Positions 33,152 to 50,516 of a DNA stretch of 64,000 nt are shown here, in pieces. The notes under the pieces are model-generated. The model searched no databases. It was not told where the DNA came from and saw nothing but the letters and a program-made list of their open reading frames with translations. The DNA is from Terriglobia bacterium (GTDB lineage Bacteria; Acidobacteriota; Terriglobia; UBA7540). The stretch covers positions 2,781-66,780 of the forward strand of contig JASHTY010000350.1 of the NCBI GenBank assembly GCA_030040315.1. The letters run 5' to 3'. Position 1 is the stretch's first letter. Every line of letters starts with the position of its first letter. The position numbers were made by a program, and so were the translations under genes.

Positions 33152-34564
33152 TCATTTCGCAAGACCAGCCAGAGTGTCGTATTGACGGGTTAAAGCGATC
33201 AGGTTTCGCTGCAAGTAATCTGCTATCTGCTCGATAATGATTTTTTTCCTCTGTTCCACACGACCGAGAGCCTTGACCACATCGTCCGCTGTGAAATCTC
33301 GAATGCGCAAAACGTAATCGCTCTGTTCCACGTCTTCCATCACCCAGTCCACCTTGGGATCGAAGGAAATGGCAATGACGGGTTTTTGAGTCGAAAAACC
33401 AAGAATGACACTGTGCAGACGGCTGGCAATAAGGAAATCAACGTCCCTAAGGGATGCGACAAGCTCCTTCCACGAGGTGATTGAGGGGACATAAATCTGC
33501 CCACCATGCAACTTCCTGCAGTCCTCACCTAGACGGCCAAGCATTTCGGCCGTGACGCTTTCGTCGTCGCCCAACGATGAGGAAACCACGACGATGAAGT
33601 AACCCTTTTGGACGAGTTGCGACACAATCTGCGTCATCTGTTGCAGGTATCGATCGTAATGGGCGGAGTCTTCATACGGCCAGCTTCCGGGCTTGGCATA
33701 AGCAATCGGGCTGATCGCGACAATGGTGCGACTGTGCGACAGCGATCGAATGCCTGCGGGCGGCGGCAATTCCGAGCTGGGTAAGCTGAATGCCAGATCC
33801 GCGACGATTTCGTCACCCTTGGCTCGGGGCAGCAAATCCGCGGCGATATTCTTACTATTCCTGTCCCGATATGATCGATATCGCGCCATCCGAAGCGCTG
33901 AAGAAAGGAAAAAACGCGACGTATGCGAACTTATCTTGCAGGCGCCCACGCTTGCGACGGCATATGGGACTCTTGCCATCCAGGCCAACACTGCCCACTT
34001 AAAGAGCGCGAAAGGGTGGCCCCATGCCCCTCCCCACTCATCATCCAGTTGACCGCCGCCCGACACGATCAACAAATCCTGCCTGCGGAGGAAGCGATAC
34101 CCTGCGACGCTATGACGAAACTCCCGCCAGACGCGCTTTCCAAAGGAGTAAATCGTCTTTAGGCCCCAACCCACGACAGGCACACCCTTAAGCGCCTGTT
34201 TTATTACACTCACATCCAAGCTTTTGTTATTTGACGGTCGCCTTGGGATATCTCCCTCTCCGGGCCGGCGCATCACCTTTCCAGAGTACATTCTGTAAAA
34301 TCGTTGTTCCGATCCGCAAAGTGGGAATGCTTCCGTGCCGTGCCGATCCATAAAATTGTCGCTGTTTAGCGAGAGTCCTGCAAACTGGGCGCGAGGGAGC
34401 CGATGGCGAAGGTGGGCGATCATCGCATCCTGAATGGCGGCATCACCGAGGTTGCCTCCGGTGTACGGCGTCAGCAGTGCGATTCGCGGGCGAGCTCCAT
34501 CAACTTCCTGACCAGGCTGATGAGCAGGAACATGAGCGGAGGAACGCAGTTCATCGATACCCAA
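33152..34564 (-). CDS. polysaccharide pyruvyl transferase family protein
   Basis: IALLTPYTGGNLGDAAIQDAMI at the N-terminus and DFLIASRLHSVILGF near the C-terminus. The start is TTG with GGAG upstream. Confidence 0.78.
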   Translation of the reverse strand: MGIDELRSSAHVPAHQPGQEVDGARPRIALLTPYTGGNLGDAAIQDAMIAHLRHRLPRAQFAGLSLNSDNFMDRHGTEAFPLCGSEQRFYRMYSGKVMRRPGEGDIPRRPSNNKSLDVSVIKQALKGVPVVGWGLKTIYSFGKRVWREFRHSVAGYRFLRRQDLLIVSGGGQLDDEWGGAWGHPFALFKWAVLAWMARVPYAVASVGACKISSHTSRFFLSSALRMARYRSYRDRNSKNIAADLLPRAKGDEIVADLAFSLPSSELPPPAGIRSLSHSRTIVAISPIAYAKPGSWPYEDSAHYDRYLQQMTQIVSQLVQKGYFIVVVSSSLGDDESVTAEMLGRLGEDCRKLHGGQIYVPSITSWKELVASLRDVDFLIASRLHSVILGFSTQKPVIAISFDPKVDWVMEDVEQSDYVLRIRDFTADDVVKALGRVEQRKKIIIEQIADYLQRNLIALTRQYDTLAGLAK

Positions 34565-34680: not shown

Positions 34681-35511
34681 TTAGGAACGCGGATTCTCTG
34701 CCGCCACCGCAGACACCGCGCCGCGATGTTCGCTCAGAAAACTGGTGATGTCCTTCCGCAAGCCTGCTCCACCGGCAATGAGGCCCGAGAGTAATGAAGA
34801 TTTGCGATTGAAGGCCGGTCGTGTACCTTCCAGGCTTTGCACATATCCTCCCGCGGATTCGATGAGTGCGACGCCGGCTGCAATATCCCATTCGTTCTTG
34901 GGCGAAAGAGTCCACGTGGCATCTGCTAGTCCGGCCGACACCAACGCAAGCTTGTAAGCCACCGACCCGGTGGGACGGACCACGAAGTGCGGGCTGTGAA
35001 ATATCTCCCACTCACCGCGCTTGACTTCGCTACGGCTGGCGAGCACGACGGCATCGGTAAGACTGTTTTTGCCGGTTACGCGCACCGGCCGTCCGTTATA
35101 CGTGGCTCCGGCGTCAATCGAGCCGAGAAACAACTCTCGCGTGAGGGGATTGTAGATGCCTCCTGCCACCGCGCGCCCGTGTTCGATCCATCCGACTGAA
35201 ATACACCATTCGGGGATCCCTGCCAGAAACTCCAGAGTCCCATCGATCGGATCAACAATCCACACGTGCGTCTTATTCAGACGCTCATGGTCATCCGCGC
35301 TCTCCTCCGAAAGCCAACCTTCACCATCGCGAACCAGCATTTTTCGGAGCAAACCGTTAATCGCTCGATCGGCTTCGGTTACGGGGCCGCGCCCGCCGAG
35401 TTTCTGCGAGGTCTCAATTTTCCCGGGAATAAACGACGAGGCGAGCTCACCCGAGGCTTCAAGCGCTTCGTGTATTCTCGGCAGAATCGGCTGTGCGATG
35501 AATTCGCCCAT
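34681..35511 (-). CDS. cysQ: 3'(2'),5'-bisphosphate nucleotidase (inositol monophosphatase family)
   Basis: Motifs are WLSEES, WIVDPIDGTLEF and WDIAAGVALIESAGG. It sits next to a PAPS-forming enzyme. Confidence 0.8.
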   Translation of the reverse strand: MGEFIAQPILPRIHEALEASGELASSFIPGKIETSQKLGGRGPVTEADRAINGLLRKMLVRDGEGWLSEESADDHERLNKTHVWIVDPIDGTLEFLAGIPEWCISVGWIEHGRAVAGGIYNPLTRELFLGSIDAGATYNGRPVRVTGKNSLTDAVVLASRSEVKRGEWEIFHSPHFVVRPTGSVAYKLALVSAGLADATWTLSPKNEWDIAAGVALIESAGGYVQSLEGTRPAFNRKSSLLSGLIAGGAGLRKDITSFLSEHRGAVSAVAAENPRS

Positions 35512-35529: not shown

Positions 35530-36396
35530 TCACGCCCACAACATCCGCGCCCCGCAAACCATCAAGATCAAGTACAGGACAAACCGGAGAGTTTGGCCCG
35601 GCAGCACCGTGCTCAGCTTTACACCCAAGAATGAACCTGGGATGGAACCGATCAGCAACGGAAGCACCAGGGACATGTCCACCATGCCGAGGTGCCAGTC
35701 CAGCAAGCTGGCGAAGCCGGTGAGGGCTACGGCATGCGCAATGTCGGAGGCAACCAGCACCACAGGAGAGCTCTGAACAAACGTCAGCAGCAAGGCCATG
35801 ATGACGCTGCCCGATCCAACCGAGCTCACGCCGACCAAAAATCCTGCGATCAAACCTATAATTACGATCGCAGGGTAAAGCTCGTTGGCAGGCCTCTTCT
35901 TAATCGCGAGAAACTTCTCGATCCTGCCCTGAATAAGCAAGAAGGCGGGAATACAAACCAGCAGAACGCCAATGAATGTTCTAAGAATTGTGTTGACTTC
36001 ACTTCCATACACCGACCGCAAATGTCCCAACAGCAACGCACCAAGAAGTGTACCAGGTAGACTGCCAGCGGCCAGTGCTGCTACCAGCGACCAGTTCACT
36101 GTCTTGTTGCGCCAATGGATCCAACTGGCCGATACCTTCGTGAAAGCATTGAAAGCAGCGGCCGACCCCACTGCGGTGAGAGCCGGCACGCCCAGTCCAA
36201 AGATCAAGATGGGCAACAAGGCCACACCCCCGCCCATTCCGCTCATGCCGATCAGCACTCCGACAAAAGCCCCGATTAATACTTTGCCAACAATAAGCGG
36301 CATCACATCCTCGTATTCGACTTCCAACCTGAATTCAAAGGCGAGGTTTGAAAAATCTTTTCTGCGGAGAGGATTTGCTGCAGCGTCGCCGCCCAT
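35530..36396 (-). CDS. TauE/SafE (TSUP) family anion permease
   Basis: Glycine-rich TM repeats (GVLIGMSGMGGGV, and GFLVGVSSVGSGS in the second half). The ATG at 36396 lies 1 nt after the sat/cysC stop. Alternative starts are at 36429 and 36303. Confidence 0.8.
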   Translation of the reverse strand: MGGDAAANPLRRKDFSNLAFEFRLEVEYEDVMPLIVGKVLIGAFVGVLIGMSGMGGGVALLPILIFGLGVPALTAVGSAAAFNAFTKVSASWIHWRNKTVNWSLVAALAAGSLPGTLLGALLLGHLRSVYGSEVNTILRTFIGVLLVCIPAFLLIQGRIEKFLAIKKRPANELYPAIVIIGLIAGFLVGVSSVGSGSVIMALLLTFVQSSPVVLVASDIAHAVALTGFASLLDWHLGMVDMSLVLPLLIGSIPGSFLGVKLSTVLPGQTLRFVLYLILMVCGARMLWA

Positions 36397-36397
36397 T

Positions 36398-38158
36398 TCA
36401 ATCCGACGCAGCCGAATCAGAGCTTGCATGCCCTTGACGATTCACGCCGATAAACCCCATTTTTTCTAAATGGAGGAAGATCTCCTGGGCAGCCTCTTCA
36501 GGGGTGAGATTGCTTGTGTCGATCGCCACATCAGCATCAGTGGGCGGCTCGTATGGATCAGACACACCCGTAAATTGTTTCACCAGACCCGCCCGCGCCT
36601 TGGCATAAAGACCCTTTCGGTCGCGCGACTCGCAGACCTCAAGGGAAGTCGAGAGGTGGACAAGAATGAATCCGCCATTCGGTTGGATCATCGCCCTGAC
36701 TTCCTTGCGAATGGAATCGTATGGAGCGATTGGGGCGCAGATCGCGATTCCGCCATTCTTGGTAATTTCGGACGCCACAAAACCAATCCGCCGGATGTTG
36801 ATATCTCGATGCTCTCTCGAAAAGCCCAGCTCAGAAGAAAGGTGCTTGCGAACAATGTCGCCGTCCAGCAGGGTAACCGGACGTCCACTCATTTCCAGGA
36901 ATTTTACACGCAGCACGTTGGCGATGGTCGATTTTCCCGAGCCCGAAAGGCCGGTGAATAAAACCGTAAAGCCTTGTCGATGACGGGGGGGGTAGTCGCG
37001 CTGAAGTTCCTTGGCCACATCTGGAAAAGTAAACCACGATGGGATTTCACGGCCTTCGGAAAGACGCCGGCGCAACTCGGTGCCGGAAATACTGAGAGTT
37101 GCTGCACCTTTGGGGACCTCGTTATCGGGAACGTAGGCGTCCTGATCCGAAAGATACACCATCATGCTGAATGGCACCATGGTAACACCCAGCTCGGCCT
37201 GGTGCTTCCCCAGGAGTTCCTGCGCAGCGTATGGCCCATAAAAGGGTTTTCCGTTCTCATCATTTCCGGGGCCTGCATGGTCGCGTCCAACAATCAGGTG
37301 GCTGCATCCGTAGTTCTTCCGAATGATGGCATGCCACACAGCCTCACGTGGCCCCCCCATTCGCATTGCCAGCGGCAACAGCGCTAACCGGGCAGTATCC
37401 TTCGGATATCTCGAAAGGATGGCTTGATAGCATCGAACTCGGATGTAATACTCAACATCGCCGGGTTTGGTCATTCCCACGGAAGGATGTATGAGCAGGT
37501 TTGCTTCGACTTCTTTCGCCGCACGCAAAGTCAACTCCTGGTGGGCACGATGCATGGGGTTACGGGTCTGAAAAGCCACGATCCGGCGCCAGCCGAGGCG
37601 GATAAATTCCGCGCGAAGCTCAGCGGGAGTCAGGCGCAATGCGCGAAAGTCATAATGAGCTGGAAGCTGGAGGCCTTCCACGCGGCCACCCACGTACCAG
37701 GGATGAGTGTTTTTCATGATGTGGGCTGCGCCGGGATGAACGGCGCTCGTAGTTCCGTACACAGCCTCGACCTCCGCGTTGCGATCCGGCTGCCAAACAT
37801 CCTCCACGTGCAACGCGGCGACCATGACGCCTTCAGGATCGCGAAGGGCCACCGTTTTCCCCGCGCCAATCGACCTCGCGAATTCCTCGCTAACGTCCAA
37901 AACAATAGGTATGGGCCATAAAACGCCACTCTTCAGGCGCATGGAACAAGAAACGCCCTCATAGTCGGCGCGTGACATGAATCCGCAGAGCGGGGAAAAG
38001 CCGCCGTTCAATAGCAGCTCCACGTCACAGAGTTGCCGCGGGGTTAAATCCCAAGACGGCCATTCACGCGAAGCAGTTTGCAACTCGGCGCCTCGTTCCG
38101 GCGATGCGACAAGATTTATGAGTTCCCCACCATGAGGCGCGATTAAATGATCAACCAT
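36398..38158 (-). CDS. sat/cysC: bifunctional sulfate adenylyltransferase / adenylylsulfate kinase
   Basis: The ATP-sulfurylase motifs are QTRNPMHRAHQELT and VGRDHAG. The C-terminal APS kinase has the P-loop FTGLSGSGKSTIAN. Confidence 0.93.
   Translation of the reverse strand: MVDHLIAPHGGELINLVASPERGAELQTASREWPSWDLTPRQLCDVELLLNGGFSPLCGFMSRADYEGVSCSMRLKSGVLWPIPIVLDVSEEFARSIGAGKTVALRDPEGVMVAALHVEDVWQPDRNAEVEAVYGTTSAVHPGAAHIMKNTHPWYVGGRVEGLQLPAHYDFRALRLTPAELRAEFIRLGWRRIVAFQTRNPMHRAHQELTLRAAKEVEANLLIHPSVGMTKPGDVEYYIRVRCYQAILSRYPKDTARLALLPLAMRMGGPREAVWHAIIRKNYGCSHLIVGRDHAGPGNDENGKPFYGPYAAQELLGKHQAELGVTMVPFSMMVYLSDQDAYVPDNEVPKGAATLSISGTELRRRLSEGREIPSWFTFPDVAKELQRDYPPRHRQGFTVLFTGLSGSGKSTIANVLRVKFLEMSGRPVTLLDGDIVRKHLSSELGFSREHRDINIRRIGFVASEITKNGGIAICAPIAPYDSIRKEVRAMIQPNGGFILVHLSTSLEVCESRDRKGLYAKARAGLVKQFTGVSDPYEPPTDADVAIDTSNLTPEEAAQEIFLHLEKMGFIGVNRQGHASSDSAASD
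36985..36992. repeat. G8/C8 homopolymer inside sat/cysC at the domain junction
   Basis: The coding strand reads GAC TAC CCC CCC CGT CAT (…DYPPRH…), 10 codons before the APS-kinase P-loop. Confidence 0.9.
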
Positions 38159-38208: not shown

Positions 38209-39183
38209 TTAGATCTTCAATGCACCTCGAAGCCACCGCTTGACGCCTTTTCCGGCAGATTCCGCTTTGAAGGCTATCGAGGCAGAGATCGAAATCGCTT
38301 TGTTACTAATCGCGGGCTTGTAACCTAGTTCCAGCATTAAGGGTCCTGCAAGGCGCTCAATCAGAGCAATTTCCCGCTTCGAAAGTTCCGAATGCCAACT
38401 GTCCGTTTTGCCGATCCTCCAGCTTTCTTTCCCCATTCTGGCTACATCGAAAGGAGCTCCGTCAAGTTTGCCCGCTTTCAGATTCTGGATACTGCATTCC
38501 TCGACGTAGCGCTGGCAATCGTCCAGGCTTGTCGGAATTCCCAAGCCGGTAAGAATACGGAACAGTGTCTCGGGACCCTCAGAGATCAAATCTTCGTACT
38601 TGACCTCAAGGTAGTTCGGCGTGTCCAGAGGGATTTTGCGTCCCCGGCGGACGTCGGCAATCCACCTTTCGCAGTTCGTGGAGATCCGTGGGGACGCCCA
38701 ATCCGCAGCCCAAGTCCTTGACGCCACGCGAAGTGAAGCCACCACTGACCGGGGATCACGAATGATATGGATGAAGTGAGCATCGGGCCAGGCGTCGAGA
38801 ATCTCCCTCGAACATTGCACGTGGGTGGGGGACTTGTCCAAAACGACCGTCGCGGAGGGCTTGCTCGTCGCAATTTTCGCGAAGACAAATCCCGAGGCAA
38901 GGCGCAATAAGGAGCGATATTCATCATCGTTCAGAACTTTCACCACGCCTACTTTTGCGCCGGTCCTTCGATCATCAGTCCATCGTTCAACCATTGACCG
39001 CAAAAACGCACTGAATAAGTGCGTCTCTTGAGCAGTCACCACCGAAGGGGATCGGGCAAGCAGGAGTTGAAGCCATGTCGTGCCACTGCGCGGTGCGCCG
39101 ACGAGAAATGCCAGTTTCTTGCCGTGGAGTATTTCTTCGGCCCGGTCCAGAGTGGGCGTCATTGCTCGAAGGTCGTTTTCCAT
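38209..39183 (-). CDS. sulfotransferase family protein
   Basis: The 5'-PSB-type loop is LVGAPRSGTTWLQLLL and the 3'-PB-type motif is IHIIRDPRSVVAS. Confidence 0.85.
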   Translation of the reverse strand: MENDLRAMTPTLDRAEEILHGKKLAFLVGAPRSGTTWLQLLLARSPSVVTAQETHLFSAFLRSMVERWTDDRRTGAKVGVVKVLNDDEYRSLLRLASGFVFAKIATSKPSATVVLDKSPTHVQCSREILDAWPDAHFIHIIRDPRSVVASLRVASRTWAADWASPRISTNCERWIADVRRGRKIPLDTPNYLEVKYEDLISEGPETLFRILTGLGIPTSLDDCQRYVEECSIQNLKAGKLDGAPFDVARMGKESWRIGKTDSWHSELSKREIALIERLAGPLMLELGYKPAISNKAISISASIAFKAESAGKGVKRWLRGALKI

Positions 39184-39290
39184 TTTGTTCCCGAAGGCGG
39201 TTCCTATTATTTTCGACGGCGATTTCCCAGTGTAAAGTCACTTGGGTGCCCGGAAATTGCACCCTCGCCGTGGCGGGGATAATCCGGACG

Positions 39291-40085
39291 CTAGGTGCCA
39301 TCCTTTACGAATATTAAATATTCACTTTGACCCGGCAGGTTTGGGGCCAGGAAGCTCGCATGCAAAGCGCACCCTCGCTGGCCAAAGTAGGAGATCAGCA
39401 AATCTCGTGGAATCACGCACCGGGAATAGGTGCGGCATGCAATCCACTTCTCGATCGTTTCGTCATTCATGCACCTGTCCGAGACGACATCAAAAACGAT
39501 CTGCCCCCCTGGCCGGACGACGCGGACCATCTCCTTGAAGTATTGGAAGGTTACTACAAATGGGAGATAAACAAACACTTTGTGCGCATGAACCAGTTCC
39601 ATCGATCCACTCGCGGTGTCGCGCAGACTTGTGCCGTCCGCCTCGCGGGCGATCACATGATATGTCCGCGCCAGCCAATTCGACCACTCCGGGTCAGTTT
39701 CATATATTTCGTAAGAATGCGGGGCGCACATTTTCTGGACGATATCAAGGTAACGGCCGGAACCCGGGCCGATTTCACATATGCTGTCAATCTTCCCCTG
39801 GAACACGCCGAAACCCGCCATCTGATCGACTGTCGCCTGTGTTGTCCCGGGCACGTGATACTTCGAGTCAATGTAATCTCCAACTGACAATCCCGCTTTC
39901 CTTGCGCCATCCAGCGTCTCACGAAATGGGATAAACGACCTTACCGCGTCCCTCTCACCAGGACGTACCAATTGAAACCCCGTCCGGCCCAGCAGGGCAT
40001 TAAACTTATTGCGAGCAGCTTTGCGATAGGTACTCATCTTTTCTTCATGGGAGGCCAGGGCGCAAAAACCGATGCGGCGTACCAC
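39291..40085 (-). CDS. class I SAM-dependent methyltransferase
   Basis: The EIGPGSGRY glycine-rich SAM loop, with a later acidic/VRPGG block. The start is GTG at 40085, with an ATG alternative at 40037. Confidence 0.72.
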   Translation of the reverse strand: MVRRIGFCALASHEEKMSTYRKAARNKFNALLGRTGFQLVRPGERDAVRSFIPFRETLDGARKAGLSVGDYIDSKYHVPGTTQATVDQMAGFGVFQGKIDSICEIGPGSGRYLDIVQKMCAPHSYEIYETDPEWSNWLARTYHVIAREADGTSLRDTASGSMELVHAHKVFVYLPFVVTFQYFKEMVRVVRPGGQIVFDVVSDRCMNDETIEKWIACRTYSRCVIPRDLLISYFGQRGCALHASFLAPNLPGQSEYLIFVKDGT

Positions 40086-40121
40086 GCCTGCAAAAGAAGG
40101 TAGGCGGGAAAAGCGAACTGC

Positions 40122-41393
40122 TTATTTGACCTCCAACTTTCCACTGCCGCTACCTTCGCTTACCAGACCTGTAAGACTTTTTTCCCAAGCTGGATGGACC
40201 TCCTGCCGTGTAACTTTCGGAAAGCAATTTACACCGCCTCTCACGTCTTCGTCGTGACTGACGTAGATGGTTACCGCAGGCTCCCACCTGTCATAACTTG
40301 TCTGAGTATCGTACCGGAATACGCCAACGCAAGGGTGAAACATGCCAGCCGTCATATTCAGGCTGAGTTCAAATGTGCAAGTGAAAACTTCCCCGGCCTC
40401 CAGGTTAAAGTTGCCATGGCCGAGCCGTTCGGTCGAAGTGTTGAACACCACCTGATGCTCCTCATCCTTGATGTAGAACTGAACCGCCAGCTTCTTGCAG
40501 AGCGATCGTCCAGTGACTTCTATGTCGATCCAGACTTTATCACCCGACTGAAAGCGCGTGCCTTCACCATGCTCGTCCCGAATTCTTACGCTTGTAATAA
40601 GGGCCTGCTTTTCGCTGACGTCCTGCAGCGTGCTCAACTGGGCCCGGTTCAAATAGGTGGAAATGACCTCCTCAACGGGACCGATTTTCAGCACACGGCC
40701 GCGGTCCAGAAAGAGGCACCTCTGGCAGAATTCGGACACCGTTTTCATGTTATGCGATACGAACAAAACCGTTGCCCCGCCCCGGATCACTTCCTTCATG
40801 CGCTCCACACATCTGCGCTGGAAAGCCCAATCTCCCACACTCAAGACTTCATCCACCAGCAGGACGTCAGGGTTCACATGACAGGCAACAGAAAAACCCA
40901 GGCGTGCATACATTCCTGACGAGTATCTCTTCACAGGCGTATCGATGAATTCCTCCAGCCCGGAGAATCCAACAATATCGTCGAACTTGGCCGTAATCTC
41001 CGCACGAGTCATACCCAAAATGGCGCCGTACAGATAGATATTTTCTCGCCCCGTCAGGTCCTGGTGGAAGCCTGCCGCCAACTCGATCAGGGCCGATACT
41101 CTGCCCTTAACCTGAAATGTGCCGCGGCTTGGCTTCATGACGCGGCTTAGAAGCTTCAACATGGTGCTCTTCCCTGCCCCATTGTGGCCAATGATGCCGA
41201 AGGCTTCGCCCTCGGCCACTTCGAACGAAATGTCTCGCAATGCCCAGAACTCCCGCCGGTCGCTTTCACTCAGGTCTTCCTGACGGAACATCCGTCCCGT
41301 CAAGGCGGGTATGAGGTCGCGCAGGGAATTAAAGACCTCGCCTTTATGGAATTTCTTGTAAACGTGCTCCATTCGGAGCGCAACATCAGCCAT
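40122..41393 (-). CDS. wzt: polysaccharide ABC exporter ATP-binding protein with C-terminal Wzt-type carbohydrate-binding domain
   Basis: It has Walker A GHNGAGKST, signature YSSGMYARLGF (Wzt/TagH/KpsT style) and Walker B LLVDEV, plus a beta-rich C-terminal extension of about 170 aa. Confidence 0.88.
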   Translation of the reverse strand: MADVALRMEHVYKKFHKGEVFNSLRDLIPALTGRMFRQEDLSESDRREFWALRDISFEVAEGEAFGIIGHNGAGKSTMLKLLSRVMKPSRGTFQVKGRVSALIELAAGFHQDLTGRENIYLYGAILGMTRAEITAKFDDIVGFSGLEEFIDTPVKRYSSGMYARLGFSVACHVNPDVLLVDEVLSVGDWAFQRRCVERMKEVIRGGATVLFVSHNMKTVSEFCQRCLFLDRGRVLKIGPVEEVISTYLNRAQLSTLQDVSEKQALITSVRIRDEHGEGTRFQSGDKVWIDIEVTGRSLCKKLAVQFYIKDEEHQVVFNTSTERLGHGNFNLEAGEVFTCTFELSLNMTAGMFHPCVGVFRYDTQTSYDRWEPAVTIYVSHDEDVRGGVNCFPKVTRQEVHPAWEKSLTGLVSEGSGSGKLEVK

Positions 41394-41462
41394 AAGACTA
41401 AACTTTCAAGTCGCTATCGGTGAATTGGAAAAAATGTTCCCCAAAGGCAAAACGGCTCTTCG

Positions 41463-42248
41463 TCAGATACTCTCCGCAAATGCCGGCTCAAGATGTTTGA
41501 AGAAAACGTACCCACCGAGAATAGCCACAAGACCAAAGCCGAGGCTGTATCCGAGCCAGCGAAGGTCCGGCGGCTCATGCAACGCGACACATGCGCTGAG
41601 TCCGTCCAGGATAGGAGCGATGGGGTTAAGCAACAGCCATTTTCCCTTTGCGCCCAGCATGCTGGTGTCGTAAAAGACCGGTGTAAAAAAAATCCCAAAG
41701 GTCAGCAGGATTTCCACGATGTACTTCACATCCCGAAAAAACAGGCTTGCGGCAGAGACGATCATGCCGACGCCGGCGGCCAAGATCACCATCATCGCGA
41801 TCAACACAGGAGTCCAGAGGAGGTACACACTCCAGCCGATCCGAAAGGCCAGGAGTAAAGCAATCAGCGCCACGGAAGCCACAAGAAAATCGAACAGGCT
41901 GGCCAGCACCGCGGCCATCGGAAAAATCTCTTTTGGGAAATAAACCTTGGTCACCAGGTTTGGATTGAGGACGAGGCTGTTGCAGCCGAACCTGATGCTG
42001 GAAACCAGAAACGCCCAGGGCAGCGATTTGACGGCAACGCTGGCGATGTCGGAAGGCTCCAGATGTTTGCCTGCGATCAGGACATACCCGTACCGAACCA
42101 GGACCCCGGCCATAACAATCAGAACAGGCATCAAAATCGCCCAGAGAAACCCCATCACCGATTGCTTGTACCGAACCTTGATGTCGCGGTAGGCAAGCAT
42201 GTAGAGAAGCTCCCGGTATTTGATCAGCTCGCGAAGATTCTCTCTCAC
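41463..42248 (-). CDS. wzm: ABC-2 type polysaccharide exporter permease
   Basis: The N-terminus is ELIKYRELLYMLAYRDIKVRYKQSVMGFLWAIL, with 6 TM segments and a length of 261 aa. Confidence 0.88.
   Translation of the reverse strand: MRENLRELIKYRELLYMLAYRDIKVRYKQSVMGFLWAILMPVLIVMAGVLVRYGYVLIAGKHLEPSDIASVAVKSLPWAFLVSSIRFGCNSLVLNPNLVTKVYFPKEIFPMAAVLASLFDFLVASVALIALLLAFRIGWSVYLLWTPVLIAMMVILAAGVGMIVSAASLFFRDVKYIVEILLTFGIFFTPVFYDTSMLGAKGKWLLLNPIAPILDGLSACVALHEPPDLRWLGYSLGFGLVAILGGYVFFKHLEPAFAESI
41685..41692. repeat. A8/T8 homopolymer inside wzm
   Basis: The coding strand reads GGG ATT TTT TTT ACA (G-I-F-F-T). Confidence 0.9.
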
Positions 42249-42321: not shown

Positions 42322-43686
42322 CTAATTAAACCTTCGATTAACCGGTTTCACCGGCCGTCCGTGCAAATGTTTGTCAATCCCCTCATCCAGGGCCTTGCGA
42401 TAAATGATGTGCGCCTCGTACACTGCCTCCGCGGTCCGATCGATATCCTGGTCGGTATGCGAGAAGCTCATCACAAACGATGGGGCAATGATGCCTCGCC
42501 GGATCAATTCCTGCAGGAACAGCGTGCGGAAAGCCTCCGACCGCTTGCCGTCCTGGTCCCGAGTTGCAAAAACCAGGTTGCAAGGCCGCCCGATCATTTC
42601 AAAAAATCCCTGCAGGCGGTTTTCCGAAACCGACCGGTTCACGAGCGCGCGCAGGCGCTCACCCTGCCGCCAAAGATGTTCCACCACCTTACGCTCACGG
42701 TAAATCCGCAGCGTTTCCAAGGAAGCCGCCAACGCATGACCTTCTGCGCCATGGGTCGTGGAGAGCAAGAAGACCCTGGGCTGGTCGTGGTCCAACCCGC
42801 CCAACCGCATGATCTCCCGCTTGCCCGCCAGCGCGGCGATGGCAAATCCGTTCCCGAGCGCTTTGCCGAATGTGGACAAATGCGGAACGACGCCATGAAA
42901 CTTTTGCGCCCCGCCCAGGTGCCAGCGAAATCCTGTAATCATCTCGTCGAAGATCAGAACGGCTCCACGCTCCTCGCACAGGGCCTTGACGCCGCTCAGG
43001 TAGCAGGGCTCGGGCGGGACATCGGCTTCCGCCTCGAATAAAACGCAGGCAATCCGCCCGGGAAACCGGTCGAAAAGGTCGCGCAAACTCTCCAGGTTGT
43101 TGTAGCGGAACTTCAATGTCATTTCCCTGATGACCTCAGGAATTCCCGCATTCATCTGCATCGTTCCGATAAACCAATCGTCGAATGAATAGAATGGCTG
43201 ATCACCGCAAATTGCGATCAGATCCCGGCCGGTATATGCGCGGGCCAGTTTCACGGCCGCGGTGGTGACGTCGGAGCCGTTCTTGGCAAACTTCACCATG
43301 TCAGCTCCGTCGATCACCTCCAATACCGCCTCCGCAAGTTCGATTTCGACCGCTGCCGGCCGGGTGAAGTTGACGCCACGCTGCATTTGGCGATACGCCG
43401 CTTCAACAACTGGCTCGTAGGCATGTCCAAGGGTGACGGCGCGCAATCCCATTCCGTATTCGATGAACTCATTTCCATCGATGTCCCACACGTGGCAGCC
43501 CTTGCCGCGCTCGATGAATCCCGGAGCCATTTCCGGGAACTGATCGTCGCCTTTTGCATACGTATGCGCTCCGCCCGGAATGAGCTTGTGAGCCTTCGGC
43601 CGAAGGGCGCGCGAATTCGGATAGTCCCGCTGGGGAGAGGGGGCTGCAACCGCCGGCCCGCCCGTTGGGTTTTCAACCTTGGCCAC
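42322..43686 (-). CDS. class III (glutamate-1-semialdehyde aminomutase-like) PLP aminotransferase
   Basis: LIFDEMITGFR and STFGKALGNG (PLP lysine) motifs. Length is 454 aa. Confidence 0.88.
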   Translation of the reverse strand: MAKVENPTGGPAVAAPSPQRDYPNSRALRPKAHKLIPGGAHTYAKGDDQFPEMAPGFIERGKGCHVWDIDGNEFIEYGMGLRAVTLGHAYEPVVEAAYRQMQRGVNFTRPAAVEIELAEAVLEVIDGADMVKFAKNGSDVTTAAVKLARAYTGRDLIAICGDQPFYSFDDWFIGTMQMNAGIPEVIREMTLKFRYNNLESLRDLFDRFPGRIACVLFEAEADVPPEPCYLSGVKALCEERGAVLIFDEMITGFRWHLGGAQKFHGVVPHLSTFGKALGNGFAIAALAGKREIMRLGGLDHDQPRVFLLSTTHGAEGHALAASLETLRIYRERKVVEHLWRQGERLRALVNRSVSENRLQGFFEMIGRPCNLVFATRDQDGKRSEAFRTLFLQELIRRGIIAPSFVMSFSHTDQDIDRTAEAVYEAHIIYRKALDEGIDKHLHGRPVKPVNRRFN

Positions 43687-43700
43687 AACACGTTCCTCAG

Positions 43701-44363
43701 TTAAACGGCGGACTTAAGAATTACCTTCCGGGCGTAAAAGGCCTCTGCCAGACCGCTGGGGGAGTTCGACTCCATGCCTCTGATGCGCATCAAGCCCATA
43801 AATGTAGACCGGTCGAACCACTTCTTCGCTTGCTGGGACCCGAAGGCTTCAAACAGAATATCGACCTTGCGTTCGCACAGCCGCTCCTCAAGAGGCACAA
43901 AAAAGTTGGGACGCCCCAGATCGCCGTCCCACTTCGGGATCTCATACTCGAGGATCAGATGATTCCGGAAAGTATTCCAGGTCAACTCTGAAAGCAGCCG
44001 GTGATCCTGGTGAGCATCGCCTTGCCAGTGGGTAAAGACCAGGTCCGGATTCACCCGGCCCTTAAGTTCTTCGAAGAATTCCTTCACCTCGCTGCCGTTG
44101 TAAGGCAGAAATCCATCCCGGCAGGTTTTGAGAAGTAGCTCCTTTTCGCACCCGGCAGTGAACAATTCAGCGGCCTTCGTTGCTTCCGCCCCGCGGACTC
44201 CCGGAGCGCTGAAAACCACCCAGGAAAATTTTATGTTGGGAAGAGTCTTCTGAAGATGGAGCAGAGTTCCACCGCAGCCAATCTCGATGTCGTCCGCATG
44301 GGCGCCCAGGCAGAGTACAACGGTCTGACCCGAATCCTTCCCCGAAAGGCTCAGCCTCATCAC
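43701..44363 (-). CDS. PIG-L/LmbE family N-deacetylase
   Basis: The VLCLGAHADDIEIGCGGT motif. Its start overlaps the rfbF stop by 4 nt. Confidence 0.85.
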   Translation of the reverse strand: MMRLSLSGKDSGQTVVLCLGAHADDIEIGCGGTLLHLQKTLPNIKFSWVVFSAPGVRGAEATKAAELFTAGCEKELLLKTCRDGFLPYNGSEVKEFFEELKGRVNPDLVFTHWQGDAHQDHRLLSELTWNTFRNHLILEYEIPKWDGDLGRPNFFVPLEERLCERKVDILFEAFGSQQAKKWFDRSTFMGLMRIRGMESNSPSGLAEAFYARKVILKSAV

Positions 44364-45166
44364 GCCACGACCCGCGTCGCGGTTTTACCATTTTTCCACA
44401 AGCACCAGGGGGCCTCGCCGCTGGCTTCGAGCTCATCCAGGATCTGCTTGTCTCGAAAGGTATCCATGCACTGCCAGAATCCAGTGTACCGCATTGACCA
44501 GACCTTGCCCTCCGCAATCAAGCGGCGGAGGGGTTCGTAGACCAACTCCTCCTTGGGTTTTATGTACCGGAAAATGTCCCGGCGCAGCACGAAGTAACCG
44601 CCATTTACCCAGATGTCCGATTCCTTCATCGTCTTGATCGCCCGCACCGAACCATCCTCACTCATCTGGACCGTATCCAGGCTGCTGGTGCGCGGTTGTA
44701 CGGATAGAAATGCTGCGGTGCCGTCGCGCCGGCCGAACTCGCCGATCAATTCGGGCAGCGGGTAATCCGTCAGGCCGTCGCTGTAATTGGCGAGAAAAAC
44801 CTCATCCTTGCCGATGTGAGGCTCGACCAGCCGAAGCCGGTCGGCGATGGTGGAGTGCAAACCGGTATCCACAAAGGTTATCGTCCAGTCGTCGATGTCG
44901 CGCTGCGTGAATTCAAGCTTCCTGCCGCCCTGCGAAAAAACAAAGTCGTTGGAAACGGATTCTTCGTACTGCAGAAAGTAATCTTTGATGGAGTTTGCCT
45001 TGTAACCGAGGCAGAGGATGAACTCCTTGTGGCCAAAGTGGGCGTAATACTTCATCACGTGCCACAAGACGGGGCGCGAGCCGATGGTTACCATGGGTTT
45101 CGGAACGTCCTCCGAATAACCCCGCAAGCGCATTCCCGCTCCGCCGCAGAATAATACGACTTTCAT
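44360..45166 (-). CDS. rfbF: glucose-1-phosphate cytidylyltransferase
   Basis: MKVVLFCGGAGMRLRGYSEDVPKPMVTIGSRPVLWHVMKYYAHFGHKEFILCLGYKA closely follows the RfbF/DdhA N-terminus. Confidence 0.9.
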   Translation of the reverse strand: MKVVLFCGGAGMRLRGYSEDVPKPMVTIGSRPVLWHVMKYYAHFGHKEFILCLGYKANSIKDYFLQYEESVSNDFVFSQGGRKLEFTQRDIDDWTITFVDTGLHSTIADRLRLVEPHIGKDEVFLANYSDGLTDYPLPELIGEFGRRDGTAAFLSVQPRTSSLDTVQMSEDGSVRAIKTMKESDIWVNGGYFVLRRDIFRYIKPKEELVYEPLRRLIAEGKVWSMRYTGFWQCMDTFRDKQILDELEASGEAPWCLWKNGKTATRVVA

Positions 45167-45175
45167 ATTCCCCCC

Positions 45176-46105
45176 TCACCGCCCCGCCTGCAGACTTGGC
45201 GCCGCGGCAGTCTTTGCGTATTGCAGCTCCGTGCCATCCTGATAAAGCGCAATCGCCTCCGCGGGCAGGTGGGACAGATCGGTCCCACGGAGGTAATCGC
45301 CCATGGTCGTGCCTGTACAAGCCGAATCAATGTTGGCAGCACCCTTTTGCCCCACGACGTCGTCCAGGTGAACGGTCCGAAAATCGATGCTGTAGCGAAT
45401 CAGATTCGTGGTGTTGGGGACGGTGGAATGCAGATGCGCGGCCGAGAACAAGTATGCACCGCCAACTTTACAGACCAGCCGGATCTGCGGGTCAAGCTCC
45501 ACCGGCTCCTCGGGGCGCGGCTGAACGCGCGTGTCGGTCTTGACGTGCTGGGCGGCGGAACTGCGGCTTTCCAGATTCCACTTGTGATAGTTGTACCCGC
45601 TTGAGCCGTTTTTCAAGGGTGTATAAAAGTACCGGGGATGAATCGCCATGCTGTTGTCCGGGGAAATGTCAAAAATGGGCATCCACCAGTTGATTTGACA
45701 GTAGGGCGCCGAATACCAAGTGTCACGATGGGGATGAAAGGCATAGGCAATCCCCGATTTCAGGTAATCGCCAGGAAATGCCGTGCGCATGCGCGGAACA
45801 TCAAAATAGGTCTTTTCAAGGTCGCACCCCACTTCCTTCAGCATTCCCCGGATCAGCTCTTTGGATTTCGGGTGGTGGATGAACTTGGGCTTCAGGGCGG
45901 AAAGGATCCGGGCGCTTTCTTCCGCGGGCAACTTCTCATGGACGCTTTGCGGATCGAGCGAGCCAAACGCCTCAGCAATCAGCTCCTTTGCCAGATCGCA
46001 GAGTTGCAAGGCGCTGGGGGAGGGAGAGAACGTAAAAATCGATCCCGCGTAAATCTCCGTTCGCCTTTCGCCGTCGGTCTTCATGGAGTCGACAAAAACA
46101 TTCAT
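45176..46105 (-). CDS. hypothetical protein; possible non-haem Fe(II) oxygenase-like (function uncertain)
   Basis: A 309-aa ORF tightly packed in the operon. HPHRD (HxD) and a later HLHS could form a 2-His-1-carboxylate triad. No other motif was recognised. Confidence 0.35.
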   Translation of the reverse strand: MNVFVDSMKTDGERRTEIYAGSIFTFSPSPSALQLCDLAKELIAEAFGSLDPQSVHEKLPAEESARILSALKPKFIHHPKSKELIRGMLKEVGCDLEKTYFDVPRMRTAFPGDYLKSGIAYAFHPHRDTWYSAPYCQINWWMPIFDISPDNSMAIHPRYFYTPLKNGSSGYNYHKWNLESRSSAAQHVKTDTRVQPRPEEPVELDPQIRLVCKVGGAYLFSAAHLHSTVPNTTNLIRYSIDFRTVHLDDVVGQKGAANIDSACTGTTMGDYLRGTDLSHLPAEAIALYQDGTELQYAKTAAAPSLQAGR

Positions 46106-46180
46106 CAGTTACCTCCCCATCACGCGATTTCAATGGTGGGCACGAAGAAAATCAATATGCACGCCCGAACGCCGGCACTT

Positions 46181-47488
46181 CTATATGACGGTTGCCCTGG
46201 GGATGGGCACGACCAATTTACCGCCCCACTCCCGCACGTATTGTAACTGCTTCGAAATCTCGTCTTTCAGGTTCCAGGGCAGAATGACCACGTAATCCGG
46301 TTTAGTCTCGCTGATCCGGTCGGGATGATAGATCGGGATACGAGTGCCGGGCAAAAATCGGCCTTGCTTGTAGGGGCTGCGGTCCACCGTATAGGAGATC
46401 AAATCCTTGCCAATCCCGCAGTAATGAAGCAGCGTGGCGCTCTTCCCCGGAGCGCCGTATCCCGCAACCGACTTCCCCTGCCGGGCAGCAGAAATCAGGA
46501 ATTCCACCAGGGCAAACTTTGTCTCCATCACCTGGCGCGCGAAGCTCTCGTAACCCTGCGCCGAGCCCAGGCCCGCTTTCCGCTCTTCGGCTACGACGGC
46601 CTCCACGCGGCCGGTTGTCTTGTGTGTCCCATCCTCGGCGCGGCAGGCAAAAACCCGCAGCGAACCCCCGTGCGTCGTCAACTCTTCCACGTCGAACGCC
46701 CTTAGCCCATGGGCCTGAAGGATCATCACCGTGGTCAGCATTGAAAAGTATGAAAAATGCTCGTGGTAGATTGTGTCAAATTCGTTGTGTTCAATCAGGC
46801 GCAGCAGGTGCGGGAATTCCAGCGTCAGGACGCCGTGGGGCTTCAGCAGAATCCTGAGCCCTTCAACAAAATCGTTCAGATCCGGCACTTGCGCCAGGAC
46901 GTTGTTTCCCAAGACCACGTCGGCGTTGCGGCCCTCGGCGGCAAGAGTGTTCGCCAAATCTGTCCCGAAAAAACGGACCACGGTCGGGACGCCCTTTTCT
47001 ACCGCCACCTTGGCCACGTTTGCCGCAGGTTCGATGCCCAGAACCGGAACTCCCCGCCGGACGAAGTACTGAAGCAGATACCCGTCATTGCTGGCCACTT
47101 CCACCACCAGGCTCTGCGCGTTCAGGCCAAACCGCGTGGCCATCATCTGGCAATAATTCTCAGAATGCTTCAGCCAGGAATCGGAGAAGGAGGAAAAATA
47201 TGCGTAGTCGCTGAAAATGTTTTCAGGCGTCTCATATTCTTCCAATTGGACCAGAAAGCACTTCTCGCAAACATAAACGTGCAGCGGATAATAGGTCTCA
47301 CCGTGGTTCAAATCGGCGGCTGAGGGATACGTTTCGCACAACGGCGACATTCCCAAATCTACAAAGGTCCGGGTGAGCGGAGCATAACAGAACCGGCAGG
47401 ACTTGGTTGCAGCCTGCTGTTGAATTTCGGCTGTGTAAGTCGATGTCACTTGGGGTTTACCTGTTCGAATCGCTGAGAAATCAGACAT
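46181..47488 (-). CDS. NDP-hexose C-methyltransferase-type SAM methyltransferase (N-terminal Zn-ribbon + class I MT + C-terminal domain)
   Basis: Cys pairs CRFCYAPL ... CEKCFLVQL, a SAM loop [10 protein letters not shown], and a C-terminal domain typical of TylC3-like C-methyltransferases. Confidence 0.8.
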
Positions 47489-48533: not shown

Positions 48534-48593
48534 CAGCGTTCACCCTTTTTTGTTGGAGAGGTCCCAACCTGAAAACCCACGTCGATGGGACCC

Positions 48594-50491: not shown

Positions 50492-50516
50492 CGGGAAAAC
50501 CGCCGGGCCTGACGGA

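What the first reader, a model, noticed from the sequence alone, without database searches (positions are those of the whole stretch)
38209..42248. wzm-wzt(with C-terminal binding domain)-methyltransferase-sulfotransferase order suggests a capped, ABC-exported glycan whose terminator could be methyl or sulfate
Seen in sequence: Wzt carries a beta-rich extension of about 170 aa after the NBD. The next two genes downstream are a 264-aa SAM methyltransferase and the sulfotransferase. Established knowledge: in ABC-transporter-dependent O-antigen systems with a Wzt C-terminal module (E. coli O8/O9a type), that module recognises a non-reducing-end cap such as methyl or phospho-methyl, and the cap also sets chain length. 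Inference: the adjacent methyltransferase and/or sulfotransferase supplies the cap. To my knowledge a sulfate cap read by a Wzt module has not been described.
Basis: inference. Interest (0 to 1): 0.6.

Follow-up and report, generated by a model that had tools for sequence, protein, structure and literature searches.

The report
Sulfated glycan export cassette, sulfate not cap
A soil acidobacterium carries a surface-sugar export operon with a real "cap-reading" domain on its pump, followed by a methyltransferase, a sulfotransferase and a sulfate-activating module; comparison with about 100 related loci indicates the sulfate is an optional decoration, not the signal the pump reads.

Summary
On the minus strand lie wzm (41463-42248), wzt (40122-41393), a SAM methyltransferase (39291-40085; likely start 40037, so 248 aa) and a sulfotransferase (38209-39183). 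Wzt carries a Pfam Wzt_C domain. Its AlphaFold model best matches the solved Wzt carbohydrate-binding domains.

Downstream lie a PAPS synthase, a TauE permease and a CysQ-like phosphatase, so a sulfated glycan is very likely.

The sulfate-cap reading is not supported. This Wzt-C subtype belongs to a conserved cassette in Terriglobia and peat or soil metagenomes. An NDP-sugar block, wzm and wzt are followed by a variable slot. In unbiased, dereplicated loci with at least 6 kb downstream (n=25):
- sulfotransferase: 16%
- a small methyltransferase: 56%
- pyruvyltransferase: 80%

The upstream sugar block occurs in 17 of 20 loci. Sulfotransferase presence is scattered on the Wzt-C tree, and no Wzt-C column co-varies with it. 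Neither transferase shows the coiled-coil ruler of known terminators.

The sulfotransferase orthologue itself occurs only inside this cassette, right after wzt.

Best reading: methylation and sulfation are cytoplasmic tailoring in a serotype-like slot, and the reader domain recognises a family-wide feature. A methyl cap remains possible.

This scan has noted sulfotransferases beside cap-reading Wzt proteins in many other genomes. This case is weaker than those.

The parts
41463..42248 (-). wzm, ABC-2 permease of the glycan exporter
   Evidence: Pfam ABC2_membrane 28.5 bits. Orthologues at 62-82% identity sit directly upstream of wzt in almost all related loci.
40122..41393 (-). wzt, ABC ATPase (residues about 46-250) with a C-terminal Wzt-C carbohydrate-binding module (residues about 264-401)
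   Evidence: Pfam ABC_tran and Wzt_C. PDB 8dku/7k2t, Aquifex Wzt, E=2e-67. AF2 model pLDDT 84.7. Foldseek top hits are 8dky, 6o14, 5hnp, 5hno and 2r5o.
39291..40037 (-). Small class I SAM methyltransferase (248 aa from the ATG; the maximal ORF reaches 40085). First gene of the variable tailoring slot.
   Evidence: Pfam Methyltransf_11/23/25. Conserved CEIGPGSGRYL motif and start position in 12 aligned orthologues. No PDB or NCBIfam match.
38209..39183 (-). PAPS-dependent sulfotransferase (324 aa), an accessory gene of the slot
   Evidence: Sulfotransfer_3 111.7 bits. PAPS-binding motifs. Weak hits to tyrosylprotein sulfotransferase, the CurM sulfotransferase and NoeE. Orthologues found only inside this cassette.
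36398..38158 (-). Bifunctional ATP sulfurylase / APS kinase (PAPS synthase)
   Evidence: NCBIfam NF004040, 903.6 bits against a cut-off of 669. Pfam ATP-sulfurylase, APS_kinase and PUA_2. It is the only APS kinase found in the 73%-complete MAG.
35530..36429 (-). TauE/TSUP-family anion permease. Sulfate uptake is inferred.
   Evidence: Pfam TauE 141.6 bits. The same trio, PAPS synthase-TauE-CysQ, lies beside the cassette in L172.
34681..35511 (-). CysQ-like 3'(2'),5'-bisphosphate nucleotidase. PAP removal is inferred.
   Evidence: Pfam Inositol_P 154.7 bits. NCBIfam CysQ 94 bits, below its cut-off.
33152..34564 (-). Polysaccharide pyruvyltransferase, the commonest downstream partner of this Wzt-C subtype
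   Evidence: Pfam PS_pyruv_trans 88 bits. NCBIfam CsaB-like 78 bits, below cut-off. Present in 20 of 25 loci with at least 6 kb downstream and in 19 of 22 with at least 9 kb.
42322..50719 (-). NDP-sugar block inherited together with wzm-wzt: RmlC-like, DUF4910, SDR, C-methyltransferase, orf309, nucleotidyltransferase, PIG-L, class III aminotransferase
   Evidence: Pfam. The same genes in the same order lie upstream of wzm in relatives. At least 5 of the 8 genes are present in 17 of 20 dereplicated loci with at least 8 kb upstream.

Best explanation
The stretch is the export-and-tailoring core of an ABC-transporter-dependent surface glycan cassette, probably O-antigen-like, in a Terriglobia (Acidobacteriota) MAG. 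By analogy with known systems, the polymer is built on the cytoplasmic face. There the 248-aa methyltransferase O-methylates it and the sulfotransferase O-sulfates it. PAPS comes from the adjacent sulfurylase/APS-kinase, sulfate probably enters through TauE, and PAP is cleared by the CysQ-like enzyme. Wzm/Wzt then exports the polymer.

The Wzt C-terminal module is a genuine cap or terminus reader. What it reads is a feature shared by the whole cassette family, not sulfate. The genes just after wzt form a variable, serotype-like slot. It may hold a methyltransferase, a methyltransferase plus sulfotransferase, a sulfotransferase alone, a second methyltransferase family, or a dehydrogenase pair, among others. 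Sulfate is one optional decoration in that slot.

Candidates for the conserved determinant are, in order of linkage: the product of the invariably adjacent NDP-sugar block, a pyruvate ketal, or an O-methyl group.

Shown here: gene content, fold, linkage statistics, lack of co-variation. Inferred: the acceptor, the site of sulfation, and what the module binds.
For:
- Complete sulfation module. The only APS kinase in the MAG lies here. A second cassette, L172, has the same PAPS trio beside it.
- Conserved cassette with a variable slot.
- Unbiased dereplicated counts. With at least 6 kb downstream, n=25: sulfotransferase 4, small methyltransferase 14, pyruvyltransferase 20. The upstream sugar block is present in 17 of 20.
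- In the same order, 11 of 137 genomes carry the Wzt-C subtype. The orthologous sulfotransferase is in 3 of those 11 and in none without it.
- Sulfotransferase orthologues looked up independently were all directly after wzt or wzt-MT (3 of 3).
- On the Wzt-C tree the sulfotransferase label needs 6 changes for 6 rows, no better than shuffles.
- About 35% of Wzt-C columns are at least 95% conserved regardless of slot content, and no column separates loci with the sulfotransferase from the rest.
Against: - Nothing here shows where on the glycan the sulfate or the methyl group sits. A terminal position cannot be excluded by sequence.
- Wzt-C domains at 50-60% identity could in principle tolerate or read different terminal groups.
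- The window's own lineage (with its closest relative G410, which also has MT-ST) differs from the family consensus at three positions. These align with the Aquifex methyl-pocket residues: S355C, L357G, Y359F.
- Flanks of metagenome contigs are limited to 10 kb, so transferases encoded elsewhere would be missed.
Confidence: 0.6

Rival explanations
1. Methyl cap. The 248-aa methyltransferase directly after wzt O-methylates the non-reducing terminal sugar. The Wzt-C module reads that methyl group, as in E. coli O8 or Aquifex aeolicus. Sulfate is a separate decoration.
For: - The best structural match of the module is the Aquifex domain solved with 3-O-methyl-mannose (8dky, E=1e-10; PMC9445017).
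- A small SAM methyltransferase is the commonest first gene after wzt: 23 of 44 dereplicated loci, combining two different methyltransferase families.
- One is present in 8 of 9 species genomes of the same family.
- A largely conserved Trp (W370, 87%) lies within one position of where Aquifex Trp362 would fall if the alignment were extended. That extension is tentative.
Against: - 44% of dereplicated loci have no small methyltransferase within 6-9 kb of wzt, yet keep the same reader residues.
- W370 is replaced by L or R mostly in loci that have the methyltransferase or the sulfotransferase (six of nine cases, the other three on contigs too short to classify) and never in methyltransferase-free Gluc2dh3-type loci, the opposite of what a methyl-lid Trp predicts.
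- The enzyme has no long coiled coil. Helices are 17 residues or shorter in a low-confidence model, and a crude heptad scan found none.
Confidence: 0.22
2. Sulfate cap. The sulfotransferase sulfates the terminal residue, and the Wzt-C module needs that sulfate for export.
For: - The sulfotransferase orthologue group is found only in this cassette, always one or two genes after wzt.
- In two loci it directly follows wzt with no methyltransferase (L106, L172).
- A dedicated PAPS module is present.
- Several Arg residues are invariant in the module: R272, R323, R360.
Against: - The same invariant Arg residues occur in the 85% of loci that have no sulfotransferase.
- There is no co-variation and no clustering on the tree.
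- The window lineage's own pocket-aligned changes are to C, G and F, not to basic residues.
- The catalytic domain fills residues 25-281 of 324, so there is no ruler.
- In Aeromonas salmonicida, a sulfotransferase-domain ORF after wzt has no matching sulfate in the known O-antigen structure (PMC4483657).
Confidence: 0.06
3. Pyruvate or rare-sugar cap. The conserved determinant read by this Wzt-C subtype is a terminal pyruvate ketal added by the 470-aa pyruvyltransferase, or a terminal residue of the C-methylated amino sugar made by the adjacent block. This is a specific sub-case of the best explanation.
For: - These are the two features most tightly linked to the subtype: pyruvyltransferase in 80-86% of loci and the sugar block in 85%.
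- Invariant Arg residues could bind a carboxylate.
- A terminal pyruvate is known on the ABC-exported K. pneumoniae O1 antigen (PMC11231755).
Against: - Loci of the MT_U2/PMT_2 type lack a pyruvyltransferase within 10 kb.
- In K. pneumoniae O1 the pyruvate is not needed for export.
- Linkage of a sugar pathway is equally expected if the sugar is in every repeat unit.
Confidence: 0.3

Closest known systems
E. coli O9a/O8 (= K. pneumoniae O3/O5) polymannose O-antigen system: Wzm, Wzt with C-terminal CBM, WbdD terminator (PDB 2r5o; PMC3482155; PMC11231755)
   Same: ABC-2 permease plus an ATPase carrying a Wzt-C beta-sandwich (Foldseek 2r5o, rmsd 2.0 A, E=3e-7). A methyltransferase gene lies next to wzt.
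   Different: No WbdD-like kinase or coiled-coil ruler. The methyltransferase is a 248-aa single-domain protein. Sequence identity to the O9a module is only about 16%. The cap is unknown.
Aquifex aeolicus WzmWzt with a 3-O-methyl-mannose/rhamnose cap (PDB 8dky, 8dku, 7k2t; PMC9445017)
   Same: Closest solved relative by sequence (E=2e-67 for the full length) and by fold. The module aligns over strands 1-7.
   Different: The Aquifex cap-contact residues are replaced by F/L306, Y307, S320, C/S355, G/L357 and F/Y359. The Aquifex residues are Ile299, Leu300, Asn313, Thr346, Ala348 and His350. A different ligand is therefore expected.
K. pneumoniae O1 terminal pyruvate on an ABC-exported O-antigen (PMC11231755)
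   Same: A pyruvyltransferase in an ABC-transporter-dependent glycan locus. A non-sugar group that diversifies the polymer before export.
   Different: According to the paper, the pyruvate there is not needed for export. From my own knowledge, that transporter has no CBM. Here a CBM is present, and the role of pyruvate is untested.
Rhizobial PAPS-dependent glycan sulfation: NodPQ/NodH, NoeE, and LPS or K-antigen sulfotransferases of Sinorhizobium and Mesorhizobium (own knowledge; NoeE hit)
   Same: A PAPS synthase genetically coupled to a carbohydrate sulfotransferase that decorates a surface or secreted glycan in the cytoplasm.
   Different: Only a weak match to NoeE (48 bits against a cut-off of 500). 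Different phylum. Here the module is embedded in a Wzm/Wzt-CBM cassette.
Aeromonas salmonicida wb(salmo) cluster: wzt followed by a 216-aa sulfotransferase-domain ORF (PMC4483657)
   Same: The same gene order, wzt then a small sulfotransferase-domain protein, in an ABC-dependent O-antigen cluster.
   Different: No sulfate is reported in that O-antigen, and no PAPS module is adjacent. Orthology was not tested.

Membership tests
Wzm/Wzt glycan ABC exporter with a Wzt-C carbohydrate-binding module (PF14524) | ABC-2 type permease gene adjacent to the ATPase gene | tested here: met
   ABC2_membrane, 28.5 bits against a cut-off of 26.9. The gene ends 69 nt upstream of wzt.
Wzm/Wzt glycan ABC exporter with a Wzt-C carbohydrate-binding module (PF14524) | Wzt/TagH-type nucleotide-binding domain | tested here: met
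   ABC_tran 70 bits. Aquifex Wzt 8dku E=2e-67, TarH/TagH about 1e-54. Walker A GHNGAGKST and signature YSSGM are visible.
Wzm/Wzt glycan ABC exporter with a Wzt-C carbohydrate-binding module (PF14524) | C-terminal beta-sandwich of the Wzt-C fold | tested here: met
   Wzt_C 62.3 bits against a cut-off of 30.4. AF2 pLDDT above 90 for 129 of 179 residues. The top 17 Foldseek hits are all Wzt CBDs.
Wzm/Wzt glycan ABC exporter with a Wzt-C carbohydrate-binding module (PF14524) | The module binds the non-reducing terminal modification, and export depends on it | not testable with these tools
   Needs binding assays and genetics. Only conservation of a polar and aromatic surface is seen.
Polymerase-terminator systems with a coiled-coil ruler terminator (WbdD, WbbB, Kp O4 ORF7, Kp O7 ORF6) | The terminating enzyme carries an extended coiled coil | tested here: not met
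   Methyltransferase: helices of 17 residues or fewer in the AF2 model, which is low confidence at pLDDT 64. Sulfotransferase: the catalytic domain spans residues 25-281 of 324. A crude heptad scan found nothing in either. That scan is not a validated predictor.
Polymerase-terminator systems with a coiled-coil ruler terminator (WbdD, WbbB, Kp O4 ORF7, Kp O7 ORF6) | The terminator gene is inherited together with the matching Wzt-C subtype | tested here: not met
   Sulfotransferase: 4 of 25 loci, 3 of 11 genomes, scattered on the tree. Small methyltransferases: 14 of 25 loci, which is inconclusive.
PAPS-dependent carbohydrate sulfation module | Sulfotransferase with 5'-PSB and 3'-PB PAPS-binding motifs | tested here: met
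   Sulfotransfer_3 111.7 bits and Sulfotransfer_1 61.7 bits. GAPRSGTTW and RDPRSVVAS.
PAPS-dependent carbohydrate sulfation module | Linked PAPS synthesis (ATP sulfurylase plus APS kinase) | tested here: met
   NF004040 equivalog, 903.6 bits against a cut-off of 669. It is the only APS kinase detected in the MAG.
PAPS-dependent carbohydrate sulfation module | PAP phosphatase (CysQ) | tested here: inconclusive
   Inositol_P family, 154.7 bits. The NCBIfam CysQ model scores 94 bits, below its cut-off of 228.8, and HisN scores 110 bits, also below its cut-off.
PAPS-dependent carbohydrate sulfation module | The acceptor is the exported glycan | not testable with these tools
   Supported only by linkage. 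The orthologues are confined to this cassette.

The most novel reading that the evidence does not exclude
In this lineage, and perhaps in the minority of cassettes that carry the sulfotransferase, sulfate on the terminal residue is part of what the Wzt reader recognises. Sulfate would then be a new kind of export-licensing cap. The pocket-aligned substitutions shared by the window and its nearest relative (S355C, L357G, Y359F) would be the adaptation. A second unexcluded novelty is that the family-wide cap is a pyruvate ketal or a C-methylated amino sugar. Neither is known as a ligand of a Wzt carbohydrate-binding module.
Probability: 0.1. Interest if true: 0.7.

Novelty: new member of a known kind. 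Interest (0 to 1): 0.35.

Why it matters
The work defines a widespread, uncharacterised surface-glycan cassette of peat and soil Acidobacteriota. It has a conserved exporter and reader and a swappable tailoring slot. That makes it a natural system for asking what a Wzt carbohydrate-binding module reads when the decorations vary.

It also predicts a methylated, sulfated and probably pyruvylated envelope polymer in an uncultured Terriglobia lineage. This bears on soil aggregation, metal binding and phage or predator recognition.

For the scan, this case is a useful negative control. A sulfotransferase beside a cap-reading Wzt is not enough to call a sulfate cap.

Tried and rejected
- The genome-contig scan with the full-length Wzt alignment chose Walker-type motifs and returned only generic Wzt/TagH relatives (41% identity or less beyond the nucleotide-binding domain). 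A C-terminal-only alignment (A3) then worked on metagenome contigs.
- A phylum-wide sample of 401 genomes held the subtype only in the window's own genome, plus one 33% match. The order-level search was the informative one.
- The listing of cluster members gave no organism names. Taxonomy was obtained from RpoB instead.
- The AF2 model of the methyltransferase was too poor (pLDDT 63.8) to justify a fold search.
- The methyltransferase has no PDB or NCBIfam match.
- The promoter and terminator scan gave no more sites than shuffles, so operon structure rests on spacing only.
- My heptad scan is a home-made heuristic. It flagged only short C-terminal helices in the pyruvyltransferase (404-439) and in orf592. 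On reading the sequence I did not accept either as a ruler.
- I considered that the Wzx/Wzy genes further upstream might own the sulfation module. I rejected this because wzt-(MT)-sulfotransferase adjacency recurs in loci without wzx.
- I looked for basic-residue gains in Wzt-C of sulfotransferase-bearing loci and found none.

Full report
**Observation**

Window 38209-42248 holds four co-directional minus-strand ORFs.
- wzm is an ABC-2 permease.
- wzt encodes 423 aa with ABC_tran plus Pfam Wzt_C (62.3 bits, cut-off 30.4, residues 261-387).
- The third ORF is a class I SAM methyltransferase.
- The fourth is a Sulfotransfer_3/Sulfotransfer_1 protein with both PAPS-binding motifs.

The extension after the nucleotide-binding domain is about 173 aa. 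An AlphaFold model built on 47 sequences gives mean pLDDT 84.7 and an all-beta sandwich over residues 264-401. Its 17 best Foldseek hits in the PDB are all Wzt carbohydrate-binding domains:
- Aquifex aeolicus 8dky/6o14
- Klebsiella/Raoultella O12 5hnp/5hno
- E. coli O9a 2r5o

One small correction: the methyltransferase most likely starts at the ATG at 40037. That gives 248 aa, as in all 11 aligned orthologues, not 264 aa.

**Surroundings**

The four genes sit inside a polysaccharide island of about 50 kb. Directly downstream are:
- a bifunctional ATP sulfurylase/APS kinase (NCBIfam equivalog, 903.6 bits);
- a TauE-family permease;
- a CysQ-like phosphatase;
- a pyruvyltransferase;
- a membrane sulfatase-fold protein, weakly like phosphoglycerol transferase;
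- an acyltransferase, glycosyltransferases and a carbamoyltransferase.

Directly upstream is an eight-gene NDP-sugar block. Further up lie wzx and a Wzy_C/ligase-type gene. The APS kinase is the only one detected in the 73%-complete MAG. A sulfated product is therefore very likely.

RpoB places the MAG in Terriglobia, Acidobacteriota, at 88-92% identity to proteins named 'MAG: Terriglobia bacterium'.

**Relatives**

The Wzt-C part has at least 322 relatives at about 50-60% identity. Named examples come from Candidatus Sulfotelmatobacter and Verrucomicrobiota MAGs.

I collected neighbourhoods in three ways:
- exact look-ups of four Wzt homologues;
- 80 metagenome loci found with a C-terminal-only alignment;
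- ten species genomes of the same order.

I labelled ORFs by BLASTP against the window's proteins and by Pfam on cluster representatives.

The result is a clear cassette. The order is RmlC-like, DUF4910, SDR, C-methyltransferase, (orf309), nucleotidyltransferase, PIG-L, class III aminotransferase, wzm, wzt-CBM. A variable slot follows. After that usually come a pyruvyltransferase and two conserved GT2 genes.

The slot holds one of:
- the window's methyltransferase family;
- that family plus the sulfotransferase;
- the sulfotransferase alone (L106, L172);
- a second methyltransferase family (MT_U2);
- a Gluconate_2-dh3 and GMC-oxidoreductase pair;
- an apiosidase-like hydrolase;
- PMT_2-type membrane proteins.

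**Counts**

I dereplicated at 90% Wzt identity and excluded the three loci I had fetched through the sulfotransferase.

| Downstream sequence | n | Sulfotransferase | Small methyltransferase | Pyruvyltransferase |
|---|---|---|---|---|
| at least 3 kb | 33 | 5 | 18 | 17 |
| at least 6 kb | 25 | 4 | 14 | 20 |
| at least 9 kb | 22 | 3 | 12 | 19 |

Of 20 loci with at least 8 kb upstream, 17 have at least 5 of the 8 sugar-block genes.

At genome level, 11 of 137 genomes of the same order carry the Wzt-C subtype. The orthologous sulfotransferase is in 3 of those 11 and in no genome without the subtype. Two further hits are paralogues at 36-37% identity.

The converse look-up gave the same picture. 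Three sulfotransferase orthologues at 61-74% identity all lie one or two genes after a Wzt_C-bearing wzt in the same cassette. One of them, L172, also has the PAPS synthase-TauE-CysQ trio beside the cassette.

**Co-variation**

A maximum-likelihood tree of 69 Wzt-C domains needs 6 changes to explain 6 sulfotransferase-bearing rows. That is no better than shuffled labels (500 of 500). The methyltransferase labels are only weakly clustered.

Many polar and aromatic positions are at least 95% conserved whatever the slot holds. They include R272, G276, E277, W288, D290, E292, T319-S320-T321, R323, C339, E342, N346, R360, T365, Y367 and D368. No column separates sulfotransferase loci from the rest.

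The HMM alignment to the Aquifex domain, read with the residue numbers of PMC9445017, pairs the Aquifex cap contacts with family positions as follows:

| Aquifex residue | Family position |
|---|---|
| Ile299/Leu300 | 306/307 |
| Asn313 | 320 |
| Thr346 | 355 |
| Ala348 | 357 |
| His350 | 359 |
| trap loop | 361-365 (YDTQT) |

These positions differ from Aquifex but are conserved within the family, which argues for one shared ligand that is not the Aquifex one.

W370 is a possible counterpart of the Aquifex methyl-lid Trp362. This is tentative, because the alignment stops before it. It is replaced by L or R in nine loci: six carry the window's methyltransferase family or the sulfotransferase, and three sit on contigs too short to classify. 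It is never replaced in methyltransferase-free Gluc2dh3-type loci.

The window and its nearest relative G410 (77% identical, also wzt-MT-ST) share S355C, L357G and Y359F. These are neutral, not basic, and other sulfotransferase loci lack them. I record this as unexplained lineage divergence.

**Comparison with known systems**

According to PMC11231755, known caps read by Wzt modules are methyl, methyl-phosphate, and alpha- or beta-Kdo. Terminators consistently carry a coiled-coil ruler. The terminal pyruvate of K. pneumoniae O1 diversifies the polymer but is not required for export.

Here neither transferase has room for a ruler. The sulfotransferase domain spans residues 25-281 of 324. The methyltransferase model shows helices of 17 residues or fewer, at low confidence. 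A crude heptad scan found nothing in either.

PMC4483657 reports wzt followed by a sulfotransferase-domain ORF in Aeromonas salmonicida, with no sulfate in the known O-antigen. Adjacency alone is therefore a weak argument.

Full-text searches found no paper describing a sulfate cap read by Wzt, and none on sulfated glycans of Acidobacteria.

**Verdict**

A cap-reading exporter and a sulfated, methylated product are well founded. The specific idea that the sulfotransferase supplies the cap is not supported in this family. The methyltransferase remains a possible cap enzyme, at about one chance in four or five.

The best-supported mechanism is cytoplasmic tailoring in a variable, serotype-like slot, followed by export through a reader that recognises a family-wide determinant. 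The linked rare-sugar block and the pyruvyltransferase are the strongest candidates for making that determinant.

**Relation to earlier notes of the scan**

Earlier notes describe many sulfotransferases next to CBM-bearing Wzt proteins in other genomes. Several of those have coiled-coil or GT-fused sulfotransferases, or reader subtypes that almost always travel with a sulfotransferase. I applied those same two criteria here, and this locus fails both. It should be ranked below those cases.

**Limits**

- Flanks are at most 10 kb.
- Metagenome contigs are fragmentary.
- Labels rest on BLASTP and Pfam.
- No chemistry is available.

Noticed in passing
window 39291-40085 (minus strand): The methyltransferase ORF called from GTG (264 aa) most likely starts at the ATG at 40037 (248 aa). 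All 11 orthologues align from that Met, and their N-terminus is a conserved basic helix (MxTLRKxARKxLN).
   Followed up: yes
window 42322-50719 and loci L003, L086, L089, L117, L133, L141, L190-L198: The eight-gene NDP-sugar block is inherited as a unit with wzm-wzt across relatives, in the same order, with 60-90% identity per gene. Its genes are RmlC-like, DUF4910/DUF2172/wHTH, SDR, Zn-ribbon C-methyltransferase, orf309, nucleotidyltransferase, PIG-L and a class III aminotransferase. The aminotransferase passes NCBIfam PRK06209, 'glutamate-1-semialdehyde aminomutase', at 706 bits. That name is probably wrong in this context. The product sugar is unknown.
   Followed up: partly
window 40122-40658 (Wzt residues 355, 357, 359) and L175:1311-1847: The window and its closest relative share C355, G357 and F359, where the family consensus is S, L and Y. 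These positions align with the Aquifex methyl-pocket residues Thr346, Ala348 and His350. The window's Wzt-C also has the second-longest terminal branch on the tree among reliably placed rows, after L159 (0.95 against a median of 0.27). Unexplained.
   Followed up: partly
L091, L095, L096, L108, L192 (between wzm and wzt): In several relatives a 610-640-aa ORF is inserted between wzm and wzt. In L108 and L192 it resembles the apiosidase-like glycoside hydrolase family that is otherwise found downstream of wzt. A hydrolase inside an exporter operon is unusual.
   Followed up: no
L152 (metagenome contig Ga0335075_10000128): Two wzm-wzt pairs lie in tandem. One Wzt is 48% and the other 66% identical to the window's. 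The sugar-block genes lie downstream instead of upstream, a rearranged version of the cassette.
   Followed up: no
L172:1-2400: A second, independent cassette has PAPS synthase (78% identical), TauE and a CysQ-like gene. There they lie upstream of the sugar block rather than after the sulfotransferase, and the sulfotransferase follows wzt with no methyltransferase. The contig has many frameshifted gene calls, probably long-read assembly errors.
   Followed up: partly
whole MAG (G000), contig C504:14019-14393: The APS kinase in the window is the only one found in the 73%-complete MAG. A second, weak Sulfotransfer_3 match (36.7 bits) lies on another contig.
   Followed up: no
window 31183-33006: The 607-aa 'sulfatase' is a membrane-anchored sulfatase-fold protein with a weak match to phosphoglycerol transferase I. 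It is more likely a periplasmic phospho-substituent transferase than a sulfatase. It co-occurs with the sulfotransferase in the window, L003 and L094, and also occurs without it in L110.
   Followed up: partly
window 33152-33290 (pyruvyltransferase residues about 404-439): The pyruvyltransferase has a C-terminal helix of about 40 residues beyond its catalytic domain, flagged by a crude heptad scan. It is too short to call a ruler, but it is the only tailoring enzyme in the cluster with such a tail.
   Followed up: partly
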